Positions 2,298-25,796 of a stretch of 53,396 bases of DNA are shown here, piece by piece (the first letter of the stretch is position 1; every line of letters begins with the position of its first letter). Both the position numbers and the translations under genes were made by a program. This DNA comes from Eubacteriales bacterium (lineage in GTDB: Bacteria > Bacillota > Clostridia > Oscillospirales > CAG-272), in contig JAZNAD010000047.1 in the NCBI GenBank assembly GCA_045586345.1, forward strand, positions 1-53,396, read 5' to 3'. Below the pieces are notes generated by a model. It had not been told where the DNA came from, did not search any database, and saw only the letters and a program-made list of their open reading frames with translations.

Positions 2298-3020
2298 TCA
2301 CTTTTCGTTTTTATTAATAATGCGCTCGGTAACGCTCCCGTCGGCAAGCGACGTGTAGCGGACGTAGAGCGAGATCTTGTTGTCCTCATTAAGGGCATCC
2401 CAGAGCGAAGCGGTAAAGGCGTCGATATCATCGGCCGTTGCCACTCTCTCGGGCTCTCCCTGGAAGGTGGGGATCGGGTTGCCGTCGGTCACGTAGGTGT
2501 GTAGAAAGTGACCGAGACCATTGATGGCGGGATACTCGAAGGTGTAACGCGCGCAGGCGCTCCCCTCGGCATCAGCGCTCTTGAGAATGGACATGTCGTA
2601 GGTAAAGTCATCTTTACCAAAGGTGATCATGCCGCTGATACGGGGGGTGAAGTTCGGCGCGTCGGGCTCGAACTCGCGGGTGCGGAGAGCCTCTGCGAAG
2701 GTCTTACCGCCGCGGATGCCCTCGTAGACGGTATCGGTCTGGTCGCCGTTCGTCACGATCAGCTTATCCGAGATCTCGCGGACGGCGGCGTAGATGATGA
2801 GCGAGGGATCCTCAACGAGGGAGGCATCGTACGGCTCGGTGAAAAGGGCATTGTCGCGCTTTGTAAACACGCGGTTGCGGCTGTTCTTCGAGCGGCCCAT
2901 GATGAAGTAGGCCGAGACGGCCTTCTTGCCGTCGGGGGTCTTGCCGAGGACGATGCCGCGGCCGACGTAGGGATTGTCACGGATCAGCTCCGCCATATCG
3001 TTGATCTTGTAGATGTTCAT
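2298..3020 (-). CDS. purO: IMP cyclohydrolase, PurO-like (archaeal type)
   Basis: 240-aa ORF with NPYVGRGIVLGKTPDGKKAVSAYFIMGRSKNSRNRVF, typical of the IMP_cyclohyd family. It lies directly upstream of the AICARFT gene. Confidence 0.78.
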   Translation of the reverse strand: MNIYKINDMAELIRDNPYVGRGIVLGKTPDGKKAVSAYFIMGRSKNSRNRVFTKRDNALFTEPYDASLVEDPSLIIYAAVREISDKLIVTNGDQTDTVYEGIRGGKTFAEALRTREFEPDAPNFTPRISGMITFGKDDFTYDMSILKSADAEGSACARYTFEYPAINGLGHFLHTYVTDGNPIPTFQGEPERVATADDIDAFTASLWDALNEDNKISLYVRYTSLADGSVTERIINKNEK

Positions 3021-3036
3021 AGCACTCTCCCAAAAA

Positions 3037-3642
3037 TTATTCGTTGATGATCGCCTTTGCCATCAGCTCGGCGGCGGCGGGCAGGAGCTTCCACTCTGCC
3101 TCCTCCATCACACGCCGCTGGAGGATCTCGGGGGTATCGCCGTCCCGGATCTCGACCGCCCTTTGCAGGAGGATGCGGCCACCGTCCGGGATTTCGTTCA
3201 CGAGGTGGACGGTCGCCCCCGTCACGCGCACGCCATAGGCGAGCGCCGCCTCATGCACGCGCAGGCCGTAGAAGCCGGCGCCGCAGAAGGAGGGGATGAG
3301 CGAGGGATGGACATTGATGATGCGGTCGGGATAGGCCGCGATCACGCGCGGACCTAAGATCGAAAGGAAGCCTGCGAGGATGACGAGGTCGGCCCCGGCC
3401 TCGGAGAGGGCCGAGAGGATCCCGTCCTCAAATTTCTCGACCGAGTCGAGGGCGCGGCGGTCGACGACCGCCGCAGGGATGCCGGCCGCAGCCGCGCGCT
3501 CAAGCGCGAAGACGCCGGGCTTTGAGGAAAGCACGAGGACGATCTCTCCACTCGGGATTGCGCCTGCCCTCTCGGCGTCGATCAGCGCCTGCAGGTTGGT
3601 GCCGCCCCCCGACACGAGGACGGCGATGCGTGCTTTCTTCAT
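3037..3642 (-). CDS. purN: phosphoribosylglycinamide formyltransferase
   Basis: 201-aa ORF MKKARIAVLVSGGGTNLQALID...NVHPSLIPSFCGAGFYG, the GART signature. Its ATG overlaps the stop of the upstream gene (ATGA). Confidence 0.92.
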   Translation of the reverse strand: MKKARIAVLVSGGGTNLQALIDAERAGAIPSGEIVLVLSSKPGVFALERAAAAGIPAAVVDRRALDSVEKFEDGILSALSEAGADLVILAGFLSILGPRVIAAYPDRIINVHPSLIPSFCGAGFYGLRVHEAALAYGVRVTGATVHLVNEIPDGGRILLQRAVEIRDGDTPEILQRRVMEEAEWKLLPAAAELMAKAIINE

Positions 3643-4331
3643 CTCACGGCCTCCTCCGCGGCTTCCTCCGCGAGCTCCTCCGCAATTTCTTCCTCGACCT
3701 CCGCTGCAATTTCCTTCTCCCGTCCGATCATCGAAAGGAGGGGAAGCAGCATCCCGCCGATGGCGTTACCGCCGATGACGAGGACGAGGAAGGCGAAGGC
3801 ATCGAGGTTGAGCTCACCCGCCGCCGCGACATAGAACATATCGGCGACCGAGTGCTCAAACCCGGCAAGGATAAAGGTCGGAACGCAGAAGAGGATACCG
3901 ACGACGGTATTCTTCTCGCGATAGATCGAAACAGCAAGGTACATCAGGATCCCGCAGAGCACGGCGCGCAGAAGCACCGAGTACCAGGGCATCGCCAGCT
4001 TCGAGCCGACGGCCACGGCCGCCACGGTCGAAAGTGCGGTGCTGCTGCCGACGGCGGGCATTAAGTAACAGACGGCGGTGCCGACAGCAAAGGTGGCAAC
4101 GGCATTGCCGAGAAGCGTCATGCCGAGACCCTCGAGCTCCCCGAGCGAAAAGCGCTCTGGGAAATAGCCGACACGGCCGGTGAATAGGCCGTAGCCCTTG
4201 TAGCAGATCGAGAGCAGGGCGACCGAGAAGAAGACGGCCCCCACAACGCGGTTGTCGCAGGCGAGATACACGCTCCCACCGATCGAGATCATAATGCCGG
4301 CCGATACGGCGGCGATGAATTGCCTCAGCAT
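3639..4331 (-). CDS. formate/nitrite transporter (FNT) family membrane protein, short form with acidic C-terminal tail
   Basis: 230-aa hydrophobic ORF carrying the FNT signature LAGFEHSVADMFYV. It is embedded in the pur operon and overlaps purM by 7 nt and purN by 4 nt. Confidence 0.75.
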   Translation of the reverse strand: MLRQFIAAVSAGIMISIGGSVYLACDNRVVGAVFFSVALLSICYKGYGLFTGRVGYFPERFSLGELEGLGMTLLGNAVATFAVGTAVCYLMPAVGSSTALSTVAAVAVGSKLAMPWYSVLLRAVLCGILMYLAVSIYREKNTVVGILFCVPTFILAGFEHSVADMFYVAAAGELNLDAFAFLVLVIGGNAIGGMLLPLLSMIGREKEIAAEVEEEIAEELAEEAAEEAVR

Positions 4332-11279: not shown

Positions 11280-11309
11280 AAAAAAGGAGCACGACTGTGC
11301 TCCTTTTTT
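11280..11309. terminator. bidirectional hairpin AAAAAAGGAGCAC-gact-GTGCTCCTTTTTT
   Basis: A perfect 7-bp GC-rich stem is flanked by A-run and T-run. It lies downstream of the minus-strand lipoprotein gene. Confidence 0.7.
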
Positions 11310-12075: not shown

Positions 12076-12104
12076 AAAAAAGGAGCACAGGTGTGCTCCT
12101 TTTT
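12076..12104. terminator. hairpin AAAAAAGGAGCAC-aggt-GTGCTCCTTTTT
   Basis: It has the same stem as 11280..11309 and lies just downstream of the stop of the 12127..15141 gene. Confidence 0.65.
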
Positions 12105-22660: not shown

Positions 22661-23404
22661 ATGAACGAAAAGATCCTTGCTAAGGTCGGCGGTCTTGCCG
22701 TGACCGAGGCCGACCTTGCCGTCATGCTGCAGGCCCTTGGCCCGCGCGGCGCACAGTACCAGAGCCCCGAGGGGCAGCGTGCCCTCGTCGAGGAGCTTGT
22801 CAACCAGAAGCTCTTCCTGCTCGACGCCCAGAAGAACCTCCTCGAGGCCGAGGCCGAGTTCCAGGCTCAGTTGAAGCGCGCTAAGGAGTCGCTCCTGACC
22901 GAGTACGCCATCCGCAAGGCCATCGCGAAGGCCGATGTCAAGGAGGAGGAGATCCGCGCCTTCTATGACGAAAATCAGAATAAGTTCACGCAGGGCGAGA
23001 CGGTGAACGCCTCGCACATCCTCGTCGAGGACGAGGAGACCGCCGCGAAGGTCGCCGCCGAGATCGCCGCCGGCAAGACCTTTGAGGAGGCCGCGAAGAA
23101 GTATTCCTCCTGCCCCTCGAAGGAGGCGGGCGGTAACCTTGGCGAGTTCGGCCGCGGCCAGATGGTCCCCGAGTTTGAGGAGGCCGCCTTCGCGCTTGAG
23201 ATCGGCGTCGTCTCCGAGCCCGTCAAGACCCAATTCGGCTATCACATCATCCGCGTGAACGCCAAGAACGAGGCGAAACCGGTTTCCTTCAACGAAGCCA
23301 GAGAGTCGATCTGGCAGAAGCTCGTCGCCGACAAGCGCGAGGCCGCCTACCGCAGCCGCGTCAATCAGCTCAAGATCATGTTCCCCGTGGATATGATGCT
23401 GTGA
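22661..23404 (+). CDS. parvulin-type peptidyl-prolyl isomerase (PrsA/SurA-like, no lipobox)
   Basis: Start chosen at MNEKILAKV, 8 nt after AAAGAGG. The PpiC domain reads NASHILV...GGNLGEFGRGQMVPEFEEAAF...QFGYHIIRV. Confidence 0.85.
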   Translation: MNEKILAKVGGLAVTEADLAVMLQALGPRGAQYQSPEGQRALVEELVNQKLFLLDAQKNLLEAEAEFQAQLKRAKESLLTEYAIRKAIAKADVKEEEIRAFYDENQNKFTQGETVNASHILVEDEETAAKVAAEIAAGKTFEEAAKKYSSCPSKEAGGNLGEFGRGQMVPEFEEAAFALEIGVVSEPVKTQFGYHIIRVNAKNEAKPVSFNEARESIWQKLVADKREAAYRSRVNQLKIMFPVDMML

Positions 23405-23601
23405 GGTAAGCAATAAAAAAACGCCGCTATCGGGGAATATTCTTATCGGAGAATTAAAAAAATACCACTAAGTGCGAGCATCGCATTTGACCGGTCAAAT
23501 GCATTATGGGTTAAGCCCAAAACCTTATACAAACAGAAAGAGCAAACACGCCAAGACGAAAAATCTTGTATGTCTGCTCTTTTTCTGTTGGTCTTAGTTT
23601 A

Positions 23602-23783
23602 GAGTTATGAGGCTCTCTGTGCTCGCCGTTATGAATTTGCTACGCAAATATTATGATATGGTTGCCCTCGCAGCTTAAAACTTGGCGAAGCCAATCATAA
23701 CTATGCAAGGCATATCATCACTCATAACTTGCCCGTAAGGGCAATCATAGTTTAGCGTGATTTGTCCGTTAAGGGCATCACTC
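23602..23783 (+). repeat. array of inverted 7-9-mers (GTTATGA / TCATAAC family) interleaved with short hairpins
   Basis: AGTTATGAG (23603-23611) pairs with CTCATAACT (23721-23729), GTTATGA (23628) with TCATAAC (23695), and ATGATATG (23653) with CATATCAT (23711). Hairpins lie at 23635-49, 23682-94, 23702-14, 23729-44 and 23763-77. Confidence 0.6.
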
Positions 23784-23982
23784 TATGCGGCGGTTTTTTG
23801 TAGAGAAGCCAAGGAGAGGTCACTCGTTTATTATTGGCAAGGCAGGTGCAAAATTACTATTTGCCGTGCATCGCAAAGAATGACAAAATATTTGCAACAT
23901 GCGCTAATATAATAGATCCATGTGGTTGACTTTTTTATCCTTAGGATCTCTTAATGCGACCGATACATCCATGATGCGCACA

Positions 23983-24029
23983 TTCCAAATAAAAAAATCT
24001 ATTTGGAATTTAAAAAGTTTTATTTGGAA
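23983..24029 (+). promoter_or_regulatory. operator-like repeats TTCCAAATA-N8-TATTTGGAA-N12-TATTTGGAA
   Basis: An inverted repeat plus a third direct half-site ends 5 nt upstream of the -35 of the island gene. Confidence 0.5.
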
Positions 24030-24034
24030 AAATG

Positions 24035-24063
24035 TTGACATATTTTAAAAGCTATGATAACAT
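24035..24063 (+). promoter_or_regulatory. sigma-A type promoter of the island gene
   Basis: TTGACA, 17 nt, TAACAT (preceded by TGa). RBS GAGGAG follows, then the ATG at 24098. Confidence 0.5.
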
Positions 24064-24097
24064 ATTTTTGTGATCATATTCTGTCGAGGAGAAACTA

Positions 24098-25135
24098 ATG
24101 AAGGTTATAAATCAAGAAAAAGTAAAGAACTATCTGTTGCGTTTGATAAAAAGCGGAAGAAAGGATTATGTTAAAGCGACGATCGAAGCCTTCAATATTA
24201 GCAAATCCAGTGTTTATAATTACGTTAAGCAAATGGAAACGGATGGCTTGATCGAAAAAAAAGAAAATACGTATACTCTTCGAACTAACAATTATCATTA
24301 TTTTTTCAAAAACGATGGAACATTAGGCGAGGATCGCGTATACAGTCAATTTATTTCGCAGCATATCCAATTCAAGAAAAATGTGAATTCTATATGGAAT
24401 TACGCATTTACCGAAATGATGAATAATGCCATTGAGCATTCGGAAGCAGAAAATATTTCCGTTAGCATTTATCAAAACTGCCTTGATACTGAAATACTGA
24501 TTATAGACGACGGTATTGGAATTTTCAAAAACATCCAAAGATTTATGAAAACCAGCAAAAACGAAATGATCTCTCTTCGAGAATGTGTATCGCTTTTATT
24601 TGCAGGGAAGTTCACAACTGCCAGGCAATATCATACAGGCGAAGGCATTTTCTTTACCTCTCATGTTATGGATGAATTTATTATTTACTCCGACGATAAC
24701 TTTTTCACCAGAAACAATTTTACATCTGCACAAATAGAAGATACTAATCTGCATAGCCTCATGCAAATGGAAAAAGGTACTATCGTAAGAATGACGATCA
24801 GTAACAGTACCAAAAAAGTTTTGTCTGAAGTTTTTAATACCTTTGCTCCGGTAGATGAAGGATTCATAAAAACAACTATCCCGGTGGCGCATATGTTTGC
24901 GGGCGGAAATCCCGTATCACGCTCGGAAGCAAGAAGGTTGCTGGAGTGTATAGCTCTCTTTAATGATATTGATTTGGATTTTTCGGGTGTGGAGGAAATA
25001 GGGCAGGGCTTTGCTCACGAGCTTTTTGTTCTCGGAAAACAAAAATATCCACATATAAATCTAAGAACGATCAAGACCTGCAAAACAGTTGAAAATATGA
25101 TAAAGCGTGTCATTAATACCTCGGCGCTTCAATAA
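24098..25135 (+). CDS. wHTH / GHKL (RsbW/SpoIIAB-like HATPase) / STAS-like (DUF4325-like) fusion protein
   Basis: 345 aa. The N-terminus has a wHTH (ISKSSVYNYVKQMETDGLIEK). GHKL motifs are the N-box EMMNNAIEHS, G1 IIDDGIGIF and G2 TGEGIFF. The C-terminus is STAS-like (SRSEARRLLECIALFNDIDLDFSGVEEIGQGFAHELF). Confidence 0.7.
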   Translation: MKVINQEKVKNYLLRLIKSGRKDYVKATIEAFNISKSSVYNYVKQMETDGLIEKKENTYTLRTNNYHYFFKNDGTLGEDRVYSQFISQHIQFKKNVNSIWNYAFTEMMNNAIEHSEAENISVSIYQNCLDTEILIIDDGIGIFKNIQRFMKTSKNEMISLRECVSLLFAGKFTTARQYHTGEGIFFTSHVMDEFIIYSDDNFFTRNNFTSAQIEDTNLHSLMQMEKGTIVRMTISNSTKKVLSEVFNTFAPVDEGFIKTTIPVAHMFAGGNPVSRSEARRLLECIALFNDIDLDFSGVEEIGQGFAHELFVLGKQKYPHINLRTIKTCKTVENMIKRVINTSALQ

Positions 25136-25224
25136 CGGCTCAACCTTCGCCAAGCAAGCTCCGCTCAAAATGGCACGGGTGGGGACTGTTGCCCGTCTTC
25201 CCCGACAAGAGAAGGGGAAGACGC

Positions 25225-25252
25225 AAAAAGGAGCACGGATGTGCTCCTTTTT
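25225..25252. terminator. hairpin AAAAAGGAGCAC-ggat-GTGCTCCTTTTT
   Basis: This is the third copy of the GGAGCAC/GTGCTCC stem in the window. It lies between convergent genes. Confidence 0.65.
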
Positions 25253-25424
25253 CTGTTATACCGCCGAAATCCCAAAAGGCACGGTGTGCCTTTGGCTCCT
25301 TCGCTCCACGCGGAGCTCAACTGCGCTCAGGATGACGCGGCGGCGGCGTAATTTTCCCCGTGCGGTTCCTCATGGCGGTAAAACTGAAGCTATTACGAGG
25401 ACGGACCGTCCGGGAGGGCTATTC

Positions 25425-25796
25425 TCACAGCCGTTTGGATTTGGCGCGGAACACCAATGCCGCCAAATACCCGAAGACGATCGCCGCGGCGGTGCCGCCT
25501 GCGGCGGCACGGAGGCCGCCCGTCAGGGCGCCGAGGAGCCCCTCCTCGGCGACCGCCTCGCGGACGCCGACGGCAACATTGCCGCCAAAGCCGACAAGGG
25601 GAACCGTGACACCGCTCCCCGCGAACTCGCGGAGCGGCTCGTAAAGACCGAGCGCCCCGAGCGCCACCCCTGCCACCACGTAGATCACGAGGATGCGTGC
25701 CGGCGTCAGCCGCGTGAGGTCAAGCAGGAGCTGTGCGATCACACAAATACCTCCTCCCACGAGAAAAGCCGTGAGATAGGAAATAAAACTTTGCAT
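25425..25796 (-). CDS. spoVAE: stage V sporulation protein AE
   Basis: 123-aa membrane ORF FLVGGGICVIAQLLLDLTRLTPARILV...VPLVGFGG, immediately after spoVAD. Confidence 0.88.
   Translation of the reverse strand: MQSFISYLTAFLVGGGICVIAQLLLDLTRLTPARILVIYVVAGVALGALGLYEPLREFAGSGVTVPLVGFGGNVAVGVREAVAEEGLLGALTGGLRAAAGGTAAAIVFGYLAALVFRAKSKRL

What the first reader, a model, noticed from the sequence alone, without database searches (positions are those of the whole stretch)
23405..25135. Low-GC island carrying an orphan wHTH / GHKL ATPase / STAS-like fusion gene
Base composition drops abruptly right after the PPIase stop (23404) and recovers exactly at the stop of 24098..25135. The island gene uses A/T-ending codons, while every neighbour is GC3-rich. 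This argues for horizontal acquisition between two convergent housekeeping units (PPIase and spoVA operon). The 345-aa product joins three modules. The first is an N-terminal winged HTH. The second is an RsbW/SpoIIAB-like GHKL ATPase or serine-kinase core (N-box EMMNNAIEHS, G1 DDGIGIF, G2 GEGIFF). The third is a C-terminal STAS-like domain resembling the family catalogued as DUF4325. So an anti-sigma-type kinase and an anti-anti-sigma-type fold sit in one polypeptide with a DNA-binding head. No sigma factor, PP2C phosphatase or other partner lies nearby. The position aligning with the phosphorylatable Ser of SpoIIAA (DSSG) reads IGQG. I know of no described function for this architecture. It could be a self-contained sensor-regulator or a single-gene defence or abortive-infection module. 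Together with its 690-nt structured leader, it is the best candidate for an undescribed system in this window.
Basis: partly seen in the sequence, partly recalled or inferred. Interest (0 to 1): 0.78.

Follow-up and report, generated by a model that had tools for sequence, protein, structure and literature searches.

The report
Mobile one-gene kinase–STAS regulator cassette
A foreign, AT-rich, self-contained gene cassette has replaced a sugar-transferase gene in this gut Clostridium; its uncharacterised protein joins a DNA-binding head, an anti-sigma-type kinase and a non-phosphorylatable partner domain, and relatives ride in phage genomes as independent add-on genes.

Summary
The low-GC island is real. 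GC is 0.34–0.43 against 0.63 in the flanks, and GC3 is 0.38 against 0.65–0.87. It is the only sub-0.45 stretch in 53 kb.

It was acquired horizontally. The closest relatives of the host carry a host-GC GT4 glycosyltransferase at the same PPIase–spoVAE junction.

The three-domain call holds: wHTH, SpoIIAB-like GHKL and a DUF4325 STAS-like domain (Pfam; AlphaFold pLDDT 89; Foldseek hits to SpoIIAB and RsbV).

- **Not an orphan.** About 3,000–3,700 homologs exist, forming 443 clusters at 50% identity across many phyla. They are always solitary and under strong purifying selection (dN/dS about 0.06).
- **No 690-nt leader.** The mobile unit is only about 23982–25162. It holds three TATTTGGAA operator half-sites, a −35/extended −10 promoter and the gene. 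The rest of the "leader" is a mosaic of unrelated repeat elements.

Homologs also sit in phage genomes as promoter–gene–terminator morons.

The closest characterised systems are VapK/VapS and CapK/CapS (EMBO J 2026). VapS is itself DUF4325, but its phospho-serine is Gln here in 107 of 110 family members.

The best reading is an autoregulated single-chain partner-switch regulator. Its output is unknown and may be phage-related.

The parts
23437..23588 (+). Repeat element A. It is sRNA-like and ends in a hairpin (23537–23582) followed by a T run. It lies in the low-GC block but is not part of the gene unit.
   Evidence: It is 83–85% identical to L014:16527-16676 and L062:8417-8568, at positions unrelated to the family gene. 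The fold z-score is -3.2. There is no credible Rfam match: the only overlapping hit is a spurious, far sub-threshold plant microRNA model (MIR156, minus strand 23530–23591, 27.3 bits against a gathering score of 62).
23594..23790 (+). Repeat element B, a multi-copy, multi-hairpin element. It has GTTATGA x3, then TCATAAC x3–4, separating hairpins that covary. It is not part of the gene unit.
   Evidence: The pattern scan gave at least 120 hits in gut Clostridia genomes, of which 90 are true copies at about 79% identity. In 50 copies, 16 of 30 predicted pairs show compensatory double changes. In L003 it lies in inverted orientation upstream of the gene. In L017 and L057 it lies 2–5 kb downstream.
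23983..24029 (.). Operator region with three 9-nt half-sites: TTCCAAATA (23983–23991, inverted), TATTTGGAA (24000–24008) and TATTTGGAA (24021–24029, 21 bp after the second).
   Evidence: These are the only three exact TATTTGGAA matches in the 53-kb window. They form the sharp 5' edge of conservation across 18 loci. Clade-specific equivalents overlap the core promoter in other clades. In the genome collection, 11 of 78 exact palindromes lie next to a family gene, 9 of them 112–121 bp upstream of a full-length start codon.
24035..24063 (+). Sigma-70-type promoter: TTGACA, 17-nt spacer, TG-n-TAACAT (extended -10).
   Evidence: The promoter scan scores 10/12 plus TG. It is conserved in 18 loci.
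24086..24091 (+). Ribosome-binding site GAGGAG, 6 nt before the ATG.
   Evidence: Read directly from the sequence. It is conserved in the alignment.
24098..25135 (+). CDS of 345 aa. Approximate domains: wHTH at residues 1–75, SpoIIAB-like GHKL ATPase/kinase at 90–240, and a VapS-type STAS-like DUF4325 domain at 255–345.
   Evidence: Pfam scores: DUF2250/wHTH 25.3 bits, HATPase_c 26.3, HATPase_c_2 24.6, DUF4325 27.9. Family-wide, DUF4325 hits 61/61 members, HATPase_c 46/61 and HATPase_c_2 42/61. AlphaFold2 gives pLDDT 88.9 and pTM 0.79. Foldseek matches SpoIIAB at TM 0.70–0.74 and 6m36 chains at 0.73–0.76. dN/dS is 0.05–0.06.
25136..25162 (+). Short 3' tail that still travels with the gene. It marks the right end of the shared DNA block.
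   Evidence: blastn against L001/L010 extends to 25162. Beyond that the loci diverge.
25225..25252 (.). Perfect 12-bp inverted repeat (AAAAAGGAGCAC/GTGCTCCTTTTT). It is a host-type bidirectional terminator-like hairpin between the island gene and the convergent spoVAE.
   Evidence: Found as inverted repeat I7. Near-identical copies lie at window 11281–11308 and 12077–12104, so it belongs to the host rather than the island.

Best explanation
The island is a horizontally acquired, moron-like transcription unit: operator, promoter and one gene. In this lineage it replaced a resident GT4 glycosyltransferase gene between the PPIase gene and spoVAE.

Its product is a single-chain version of the GHKL-kinase / STAS 'partner-switch' logic known from SpoIIAB–SpoIIAA, CapK–CapS and VapK–VapS.

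**Proposed mechanism**
1. The N-terminal wHTH, as a dimer or higher oligomer, binds the three TATTTGGAA half-sites next to the -35 element and represses its own promoter. This is inferred from conserved operators that co-vary with protein clade.
2. The SpoIIAB-like domain binds and hydrolyses ATP, since all catalytic motifs are invariant.
3. The C-terminal VapS-type STAS domain carries Gln where VapS has its phospho-Ser. It would act as a built-in pseudo-substrate or sensor partner of the kinase domain, not as a consumable substrate. This is inference.
4. A signal remodels the kinase–STAS clamp. By analogy with CapK/VapK this could be ssDNA from DNA damage or phage replication; a change in ATP/ADP is the alternative. 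The remodelling would release DNA and/or free the kinase face to act on a target in trans. This is speculative.

The biological output is not known. Repeated carriage as an independent cassette inside phage genomes suggests a lysogen-benefit or phage–host conflict role.
For: **Horizontal transfer**
- GC and GC3 contrast sharply with the flanks.
- The closest host relatives, L090–L092 (PPIase 81–86% identical), have a host-GC Glyco_transf_4/Glycos_transf_1 gene at this junction and no island gene. No remnant of that gene is present in the window.
- Homologs 85–90% identical in protein lie in unrelated contexts in genomes of 0.38–0.53 GC.

**Self-contained unit**
- No neighbour recurs in more than 7 of 88 loci.
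- DNA conservation starts exactly at the first half-site and ends at the stop codon.

**Autoregulation**
- Three exact half-sites occur only at the promoter within the 53-kb window.
- The TTTGGAA-type motif occurs about three times at roughly 21-bp spacing and overlaps -35/-10 in the 44–55% identity clades. A different repeat, ATAAAGTTT, is used in the 36–43% clade.
- The exact palindrome was not found at any other exact-match site in genomes that carry the gene.

**Fold and chemistry**
- Pfam and family scans support the three domains.
- AlphaFold2 pLDDT is 88.9 and pTM 0.79. Foldseek matches SpoIIAB and the RsbV/RsbW entry.
- The N, G1 and G2 boxes are invariant, as is S274-R275-S276-x-A-x-R. 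Gln303 is present in 107 of 110 sequences.

**Kinship with characterised systems**
- VapS scores 62.7 bits on DUF4325. VapS S48 aligns with Q303.
- The CapK/CapS and VapKSC mechanisms come from PMC13373217.

**Moron behaviour**
- The family is on 62 IMG/VR contigs.
- In about 14 contigs the gene sits next to a phrog_36 regulator and upstream of terminase small/large subunits and portal; in most it lies directly between the regulator and terS. Another lineage places it after the tape-measure and tail genes.
- The phage copy in L180 has its own promoter with repeats and a terminator on each side.

**Function retained**
- dN/dS is 0.05–0.06.
Against: - No experiment or direct computation shows that the wHTH binds these repeats.
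- I could not inspect PAE or coordinates, so docking of the STAS domain onto the kinase is not shown.
- The canonical phospho-acceptor is absent, so 'kinase' may really mean ATPase only.
- No effector domain, no conserved downstream gene and no trans operator were found, so the output is undefined.
- PADLOC gives no match. The 130 immediate neighbours are mostly housekeeping, with only scattered single defence-model hits and no integrase or transposase enrichment.
- There is no hit in the INPHARED phage or PLSDB plasmid collections.
- IMG/VR contigs may include host flanks.
- The mechanism of insertion is unknown. No terminal repeats or target duplications were seen.
Confidence: 0.45

Rival explanations
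1. It is a stand-alone anti-phage or superinfection-exclusion module. On infection the SpoIIAB-like domain is released from its pseudo-substrate STAS. It then sequesters or phosphorylates a phage or host factor, for example a sigma-like late regulator, and blocks the phage or arrests the cell.
For: - It behaves as a moron inside phage genomes, in most of about 14 contigs immediately after a phrog_36 transcriptional regulator. That regulator shows weak DUF1492 / sigma-70 region 4 signals.
- It is AT-richer than its surroundings almost everywhere.
- VapKSC uses the same DUF4325 STAS and protects against a phage (PMC13373217).
- An Acidiferrobacter homolog lies beside WYL–WCX, NERD-helicase and ADP-ribosylglycohydrolase genes.
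- Stand-alone DUF4325 proteins occur in prophages and phages.
Against: - There is no PADLOC hit.
- Neighbours are not visibly enriched for defence genes.
- There is no recognisable toxin or effector domain.
- The position next to the late regulator may simply be a common moron slot.
- No phenotype data exist.
Confidence: 0.25
2. It is an ordinary accessory transcription factor. Its GHKL–STAS module senses ATP/ADP or a small ligand and controls a distal regulon unrelated to phages. Low GC merely reflects membership of the flexible genome.
For: - The wHTH and autoregulated promoter are typical of MarR/ArsR-like regulators.
- It is widespread in free-living phyla.
- Most neighbours are metabolic or housekeeping genes.
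Against: - The exact operator palindrome was not found at any second exact-match site in genomes that carry the gene. The motif occurs nowhere else in the 53-kb window.
- Position changes between related species and the gene is carried in phages. Both are unusual for a regulator tied to a host regulon.
Confidence: 0.2
3. It is a single-chain CapK/CapS equivalent that switches on an adjacent immune operon after DNA damage.
For: - It uses the same domain vocabulary: HTH, anti-sigma-type GHKL, STAS and wHTH.
- Palindromic operators sit in its own promoter, as for CapS.
Against: - No conserved downstream gene exists in 88 loci. Here the downstream gene is the convergent spoVAE.
- hhalign probabilities against CapK, CapS and VapK are only 31–41% and are confined to the N-box/G1 region or the wHTH.
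- The CapS STAS is not DUF4325.
- The phospho-Ser is absent.
Confidence: 0.05
4. It is a decaying relic of a transfer event, or a sporulation anti-sigma factor linked to the neighbouring spoVA operon.
For: - It lies next to sporulation genes.
- It is SpoIIAB-like.
- One locus (L423) keeps the operator but only the C-terminal 80 residues.
Against: - The ORF is intact with every invariant residue, and dN/dS is about 0.06.
- Homologs sit at unrelated loci and in non-sporulating phyla.
- Host relatives have a glycosyltransferase here instead.
Confidence: 0.05

Closest known systems
VapK–VapS–VapC (VapKSC) toxin–antitoxin/defence system (Chambers et al., EMBO J 2026, PMC13373217)
   Same: VapS is a strong DUF4325 member (62.7 bits), the same Pfam family as the C-terminal domain here. 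The two align over the LDF-x-x-V…F core. VapK has an anti-sigma-type GHKL kinase with a similar N-box (E-x-x-x-N-x-x-x-H-S) and G1 box.
   Different: VapKSC has three separate genes including a PIN toxin, whereas here there is one fused protein and no toxin. VapS S48, the phospho-acceptor, is Gln303 here (107/110). VapK carries an N-terminal STAS rather than a wHTH. Kinase-domain similarity is weak (hhalign probability 41%).
CapK–CapS regulators of immune operons (same paper)
   Same: Both combine an HTH, an anti-sigma-type GHKL kinase, a STAS domain and a wHTH repressor that binds palindromes in its own promoter. Both autoregulate.
   Different: CapK/CapS are two proteins with different domain orders (HTH–STAS–GHKL and STAS–wHTH). 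They always lie upstream of an immune operon. CapS has a conserved phospho-Ser54. The CapS STAS is not DUF4325. Profile similarity to this family is only generic.
SpoIIAB–SpoIIAA / RsbW–RsbV partner-switching modules
   Same: These give the best structural matches: SpoIIAB entries 1til, 1l0o and 1tid at TM 0.70–0.74, and the roughly 104-residue chains of the RsbV/RsbW entry 6m36 at TM 0.73–0.76. The N, G1 and G2 boxes are intact.
   Different: Those systems have separate proteins, a cognate sigma factor and a PP2C phosphatase encoded nearby, and a phosphorylatable Ser. None of these is present here. In addition, a wHTH is fused here.
Phage morons (independent promoter–gene–terminator units inserted between phage modules)
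   Same: Phage-borne homologs have their own promoter and flanking terminators. Their GC is lower than that of the phage (0.29 vs 0.42). They sit between functional modules. The window copy has the same autonomous layout.
   Different: The window copy is chromosomal, with no prophage genes around it. 'Moron' describes a genetic layout, not a function.

Membership tests
Pfam DUF4325 (PF14213, STAS-like; now known to include VapS) | Score above the gathering threshold on the Pfam model | tested here: met
   The window protein scores 27.9 bits against a cutoff of 23. All 61 diverse family members match, with a best E-value of 1.7e-17. VapS scores 62.7 bits.
Anti-sigma-factor-type GHKL Ser kinases (HATPase_c_2; SpoIIAB/RsbW) | Bergerat fold with N-box (E..N..H), G1 (DxGxG) and G2 (GxG) motifs | tested here: met
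   The motifs are invariant in 110 sequences. Foldseek gives TM 0.70–0.74 to SpoIIAB. Pfam scores for the window protein fall just below the thresholds (HATPase_c 26.3 vs 26.4; HATPase_c_2 24.6 vs 27.4). However, 42–46 of 61 relatives match at E<=1e-3.
Anti-sigma-factor-type GHKL Ser kinases (SpoIIAB/RsbW partner switch) | Phosphorylatable Ser/Thr at the N-terminus of STAS helix alpha-2 in the partner | tested here: not met
   The site reads G302-Q303-(A/G)304. Gln is present in 107/110 sequences and Ser appears at position 304 in 1/110.
Anti-sigma-factor-type GHKL Ser kinases (SpoIIAB/RsbW partner switch) | Cognate sigma factor and/or PP2C phosphatase encoded with it | tested here: not met
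   None is present in the window neighbourhood. No conserved neighbour exists in 88 loci.
CapK/CapS | Adjacent capK (HTH–STAS–GHKL) and capS (STAS–wHTH) genes upstream of an immune operon | tested here: not met
   Here there is a single fused gene in the order wHTH–GHKL–STAS and no conserved downstream gene. hhalign probabilities are 31–33% and limited to generic motifs.
CapK/CapS | Kinase activated by ssDNA; repressor released by phosphorylation | not testable with these tools
   This needs biochemistry or AF3 modelling with nucleic acid.
VapKSC | Three-gene operon with a VapC-like PIN toxin | tested here: not met
   No PIN gene lies next to the gene here or recurs in 88 loci.
Catalogued anti-phage defence systems (PADLOC-DB v2.0.0) | Match to a defence-protein HMM over the catalytic part | tested here: not met
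   Only weak wHTH-level hits to Csa3/CARF regulators were found, with a best E-value of 2e-4.
Phage moron | Autonomous promoter–gene–terminator unit inside a phage genome, with composition unlike its neighbours | tested here: met
   This holds for homologs. In L180 the gene lies between the phrog_36 regulator and terminase small subunit, with a terminator on each side and its own promoter. Its GC is 0.29 against 0.42 for the phage. The window copy has the same layout but is chromosomal.
Structured cis-regulatory leader / riboswitch | A long 5' leader conserved with the gene | tested here: not met
   Upstream gaps are mostly 100–350 bp. Conservation starts 115 bp upstream of the ATG. Rfam gives only far sub-threshold, spurious hits.

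The most novel reading that the evidence does not exclude
The wHTH–GHKL–DUF4325 family is a previously unrecognised one-protein phage-conflict system. It spreads as a moron between phages and chromosomes.

In this reading an anti-sigma-type kinase is kept off by a fused, non-phosphorylatable VapS-like pseudo-substrate. An infection cue such as ssDNA releases it. It then sequesters or phosphorylates a phage late sigma-like regulator or an essential host factor.

Sensor, switch and effector would all sit in one 345-aa chain. The invariant Ser274-Arg-Ser276 might serve as a relocated phospho-acceptor or as a nucleic-acid/phosphate-binding site.
Probability: 0.2. Interest if true: 0.8.

Novelty: new variant of a known kind. 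Interest (0 to 1): 0.55.

Why it matters
Kinase–STAS partner switches were long known only as sigma-factor controllers. In 2026 they were shown to gate bacterial immune operons and a toxin–antitoxin system.

This family packs the same parts into one autoregulated polypeptide with a deliberately "dead" phospho-site. It is abundant: thousands of members across many phyla, in animal-gut Clostridia and in their phages. It moves as a single-gene cassette.

Working out its signal and target would have three uses:
- It would test whether partner-switch logic can operate within one molecule.
- It would assign a function to a large DUF4325-containing fused family.
- It might add a compact, portable sensor-regulator or defence gene to the known set.

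It is also a clean example of gene replacement by a moron-like cassette at a housekeeping locus.

Tried and rejected
- **Leader as riboswitch or ncRNA of the gene.** An Rfam E-value scan of 23300–25450 gave only spurious hits. Comparison across loci shows the leader is not conserved with the gene. Rejected.
- **Conserved partner gene.** All-vs-all clustering of ORFs within ±5 kb in 88 loci found nothing recurring in more than 7 loci. Pfam and PADLOC scans of 130 immediate neighbours showed no enrichment.
- **Carriage on sequenced phages or plasmids.** tblastn against INPHARED and PLSDB gave no match. IMG/VR did give 62 loci.
- **Solved structure for the C-terminal domain.** A PDB sequence search with a domain-only profile gave nothing meaningful.
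- **Orthology with CapK, CapS or VapK.** Only generic motif-level similarity was found. Rejected as membership but kept as analogy.
- **Trans regulon.** The operator motif is absent elsewhere in the window. The exact palindrome was not found at any other exact-match site in genomes that carry the gene.
- **Informative domain fusions in longer homologs.** Only one was found, an RHS-repeat N-terminal extension (P0227). It may be a gene-call artefact.
- **Terminal inverted repeats or target-site duplication.** None convincing was found flanking the island.
- **Remnant of the displaced glycosyltransferase.** None is present in the window.
Full report
**1. The observation**

GC in 300-nt windows drops from 0.63–0.64 to 0.31–0.43 between about 23350 and 25150, then returns to 0.58–0.69. 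It is the only stretch of the 53-kb window with 1-kb GC below 0.45. The minimum is 0.34, more than 4 sd below the mean of 0.583.

The 345-aa ORF 24098..25135 (+) has GC3 of 0.38. The neighbouring ileS, PPIase, spoVAE, spoVAD and spoVAC have 0.65–0.87. The composition claim is confirmed.

**2. What was here before**

Searching the flanking PPIase against one genome per species found three close relatives of the host: L090, L091 and L092. Their PPIase is 81–86% identical, and their ileS–PPIase DNA is 81–85% identical.

In L090 and L091 DNA homology picks up again inside spoVAE, so both junction flanks are confirmed there. In L092 only the PPIase side aligned at the DNA level. In all three a host-GC (0.61–0.68) 380-aa gene follows the PPIase gene after a few bases. 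In L090 and L091 it fills the gap to spoVAE. It is a GT4 glycosyltransferase (Glyco_transf_4 at 98.8 bits, Glycos_transf_1 at 91 bits).

None of these loci encodes the island protein. The window retains no remnant of the glycosyltransferase. None of the three assemblies is among the 80 best genome hits for the island protein. The island therefore replaced a resident gene rather than inserting into an empty junction.

**3. The gene is not an orphan, and it moves**

A word-indexed search found 3005 homologs. A profile search found 3726 at E<=1e-10. An exhaustive HMMER search of 50%-identity representatives found 1827 clusters at E<=1e-3 and 443 at E<=1e-30. Nearly all are full-length at 330–360 aa.

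Members come from gut Clostridia (Oscillospiraceae, Lachnospiraceae). They also come from Chloroflexi, Gammaproteobacteria, Desulfobacteraceae, Methylomirabilales and Treponema.

Homologs 85–90% identical to the window protein lie in completely different neighbourhoods, in genomes of 0.38–0.53 GC. In almost every locus the gene is 5–15 GC points below its flanks. Clustering all ORFs within ±5 kb of 88 loci gave no neighbour family present in more than 7 loci. Immediate neighbours are a housekeeping mix. There is no integrase or transposase signal and only isolated defence-model hits.

dN/dS against four close homologs is 0.05–0.06 with dS of at least 1. The gene is functional, and its unameliorated GC3 marks it as a newcomer to this 0.63-GC host.

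**4. The real unit and the 'leader'**

DNA similarity to other loci covers only 23982–25162. An 18-locus alignment shows conservation switching on exactly at TTCCAAATA (23983) and off at the stop codon.

The shared 115 bp holds, in order:
- TTCCAAATA, 8 nt, TATTTGGAA, 12 nt, TATTTGGAA
- TTGACA, a 17-nt spacer, and TG-n-TAACAT (scored 10/12 plus TG)
- a GAGGAG ribosome-binding site

TATTTGGAA occurs exactly three times in the whole window, all at this promoter.

Other protein clades carry their own repeated motif at the same place. In the 44–55% identity clades it is TTTGGAA about three times at roughly 21-bp spacing, with one copy between -35 and -10. In the 36–43% identity clade it is ATAAAGTTT two or three times. 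An operator that changes with the DNA-binding domain is the signature of autoregulation. This is inference, not measurement.

The exact palindrome TTCCAAATA-N8-TATTTGGAA was found 78 times in 185,579 genomes. Eleven sites lie next to a family gene. Nine are 112–121 bp upstream of a full-length start. One more lies at 81 nt from a copy (L423) that keeps only residues 265–344. No second exact-match site was found in any carrier genome. The other 67 are in unrelated AT-rich taxa.

Upstream gaps in the family are mostly 100–350 bp, so the 690-nt 'structured leader' is not a family feature. Its distal part is a mosaic:
- **Element A (23437–23588).** It is 83–85% identical to sequences in L014 and L062 that lie away from the gene.
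- **Element B (about 23594–23790).** This is a multi-copy repeat of animal-gut Clostridia, with at least 120 pattern hits of which 90 are true copies. Invariant GTTATGA/TCATAAC heptamers separate hairpins that covary. Sixteen of 30 predicted pairs show compensatory changes in 50 copies.

Neither element has a credible Rfam match.

**5. The protein**

Pfam gives a wHTH at residues 2–59 (DUF2250 at 25.3 bits, plus many weaker HTH families). It gives HATPase_c at 103–184 (26.3 bits), HATPase_c_2 at 91–196 (24.6 bits) and DUF4325 at 278–319 (27.9 bits, above threshold). Across 61 diverse relatives, DUF4325 matches 61, HATPase_c 46 and HATPase_c_2 42.

AlphaFold2 with a 110-sequence alignment gives pLDDT 88.9 and pTM 0.79. 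Foldseek against PDB ranks SpoIIAB first (1til, 1l0o, 1tid, 1th8; TM 0.70–0.74 normalised to the target). It also finds the roughly 104-residue chains of the RsbV/RsbW entry 6m36 (TM 0.73–0.76; by length these are RsbV, which is my inference) and the STAS-bearing SLC26A9.

Invariant in 110 sequences are N109, N110, H114, D137, G139, G141, H179, G181 and G183. E106 and E182 are near-invariant (109/110 and 106/110). This is a complete ATP site. Also invariant are S274-R275-S276-x-A278-x-R280, F295, G302, F305 and F310. Q303 is present in 107 of 110 sequences and position 304 is Ala or Gly.

**6. Comparison with what is known**

DUF4325 appears in only three papers. One notes PIN genes coupled to DUF4325 genes. 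Another notes a prophage DUF4325 ORF.

A 2026 EMBO J paper (PMC13373217) describes two systems:
- **CapK/CapS.** CapK (HTH–STAS–GHKL) is activated by ssDNA and phosphorylates the STAS–wHTH repressor CapS. This de-represses immune operons.
- **VapKSC.** VapK phosphorylates the STAS antitoxin VapS and so frees the PIN toxin VapC.

I extracted the sequences from the paper's supplements. VapS is a strong DUF4325 member (62.7 bits). Its phospho-Ser48 aligns with Q303. CapS is not DUF4325, and CapK shows only a weak HATPase_c signal.

Profile comparisons of the family with CapK, CapS and VapK reach only 31–41% probability. They cover just the N-box/G1 region or the wHTH.

The window protein therefore shares the parts list and probably the logic of these systems, but it is not a member. 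It is one chain with a different domain order. It has no phospho-acceptor, no partner gene and no effector. PADLOC v2 has no model for it.

**7. Phage connection**

The family occurs on 62 IMG/VR contigs. In about 14 contigs it is co-oriented next to a phrog_36 transcriptional regulator and upstream of terminase small subunit (phrog_51), terminase large subunit, portal (phrog_533) and minor head protein. In most of these it lies directly between the regulator and terS. In another lineage it follows the tape-measure and tail genes.

The L180 copy has a terminator before it, its own promoter with AACTTTA/ATAAAGTT repeats, and a terminator after it. Its GC is 0.29 against 0.42 for the phage. This is the textbook moron layout.

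The phrog_36 neighbour shows only weak DUF1492 / sigma-70 region 4 signals. The idea that the anti-sigma-like domain targets it is a lead, not a finding.

**8. Mechanism and confidence**

- **Shown:** horizontal acquisition with gene replacement; an autonomous unit; the three-domain fold; an intact ATP site; no canonical phospho-site; solitary occurrence; carriage in phages.
- **Inferred (about 0.7):** the wHTH represses its own promoter through the repeated half-sites.
- **Inferred (about 0.5):** the STAS-like domain is an intramolecular pseudo-substrate or sensor partner of the GHKL domain. The pTM of 0.79 points to a defined inter-domain arrangement, but I could not inspect PAE.
- **Speculative (0.2–0.3):** the signal is ssDNA or infection, and the output is a phage-conflict function.

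Overall confidence in the composite best explanation is 0.45.

**9. Verdict**

'Orphan' and 'structured leader' are wrong.

This is a new variant of the kinase–STAS partner-switch kind. It is a widespread, uncharacterised, single-chain, autoregulated, moron-like cassette. It is interesting and testable but not categorically new.

Noticed in passing
window 23594-23790 (copies e.g. L238:6408-6620, L268:3126-3338): A multi-copy structured repeat of about 160–200 nt in animal-gut Clostridia. Invariant GTTATGA (x3) and TCATAAC (x3–4) heptamers separate short hairpins, often with CGAAG-type loops, that covary strongly (16 of 30 pairs with compensatory changes in 50 copies). There are several copies per genome, some near contig ends. 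It has no credible Rfam match. It could be a REP/BIME- or MITE-like element or a new ncRNA.
   Followed up: partly
window 23437-23588: A 150-nt element that is 83–85% identical to sequences in two other Clostridia MAGs (L014:16527-16676, L062:8417-8568). It ends in a terminator-like hairpin plus T run, and its fold z-score is -3.2. It may be a small RNA gene or a mobile fragment.
   Followed up: partly
L090:6749-7891, L091:3230-4369, L092:6749-7885: A host-GC GT4 glycosyltransferase follows the PPIase gene in the three closest relatives, and in L090 and L091 demonstrably occupies the PPIase–spoVAE junction. It is completely missing from the window, so the island arrived by replacement rather than simple insertion.
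   Followed up: yes
L090:7950-8300 and L091:4450-4800; window 25301-25336: A GC-rich REP-like repeat of the host lineage (…CTGAGCGCAGTCGAA…GGAGCGAGG…; tandem copies of GCGAGCTGCGGTTTATGCCAAGAGCC…) lies in the spoVAE-proximal intergenic region. A 36-nt piece is present in inverted orientation in the window.
   Followed up: no
window 25225-25252, 11281-11308, 12077-12104: The same perfect 12-bp-stem hairpin (AAAAAGGAGCAC…GTGCTCCTTTTT) recurs three times in the window at 90–93% identity. It appears to be a reused bidirectional terminator or repeat.
   Followed up: no
L423:2778-3098: One Clostridia MAG keeps the exact operator palindrome. Only the last 80 residues of the protein (the STAS-like domain, 86% identical) follow, 81 nt downstream. 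This is a deletion derivative or a naturally stand-alone DUF4325 version.
   Followed up: no
P0227 (684 aa): One family representative has a roughly 330-aa N-terminal extension with an RHS repeat in front of the complete wHTH–GHKL–DUF4325 module. A Treponema homolog (L174) lies about 0.8 kb from a CdiA_C toxin fragment. This may hint at polymorphic-toxin loci, or it may be a gene-call artefact.
   Followed up: partly
L172:635-7673: An Acidiferrobacter homolog sits at the edge of a likely defence island (NERD–UvrD helicase, ADP-ribosylglycohydrolase, DUF2779, WYL–WCX regulator) next to queA/tgt.
   Followed up: no
L176-L195 (e.g. L180:7290-7700): In about 14 viral contigs a small phrog_36 'transcriptional regulator' lies next to the gene, directly upstream of it in most. 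It shows weak DUF1492 / sigma-70 region 4 signals. This is a possible functional link between an anti-sigma-like protein and a sigma-like late regulator.
   Followed up: partly
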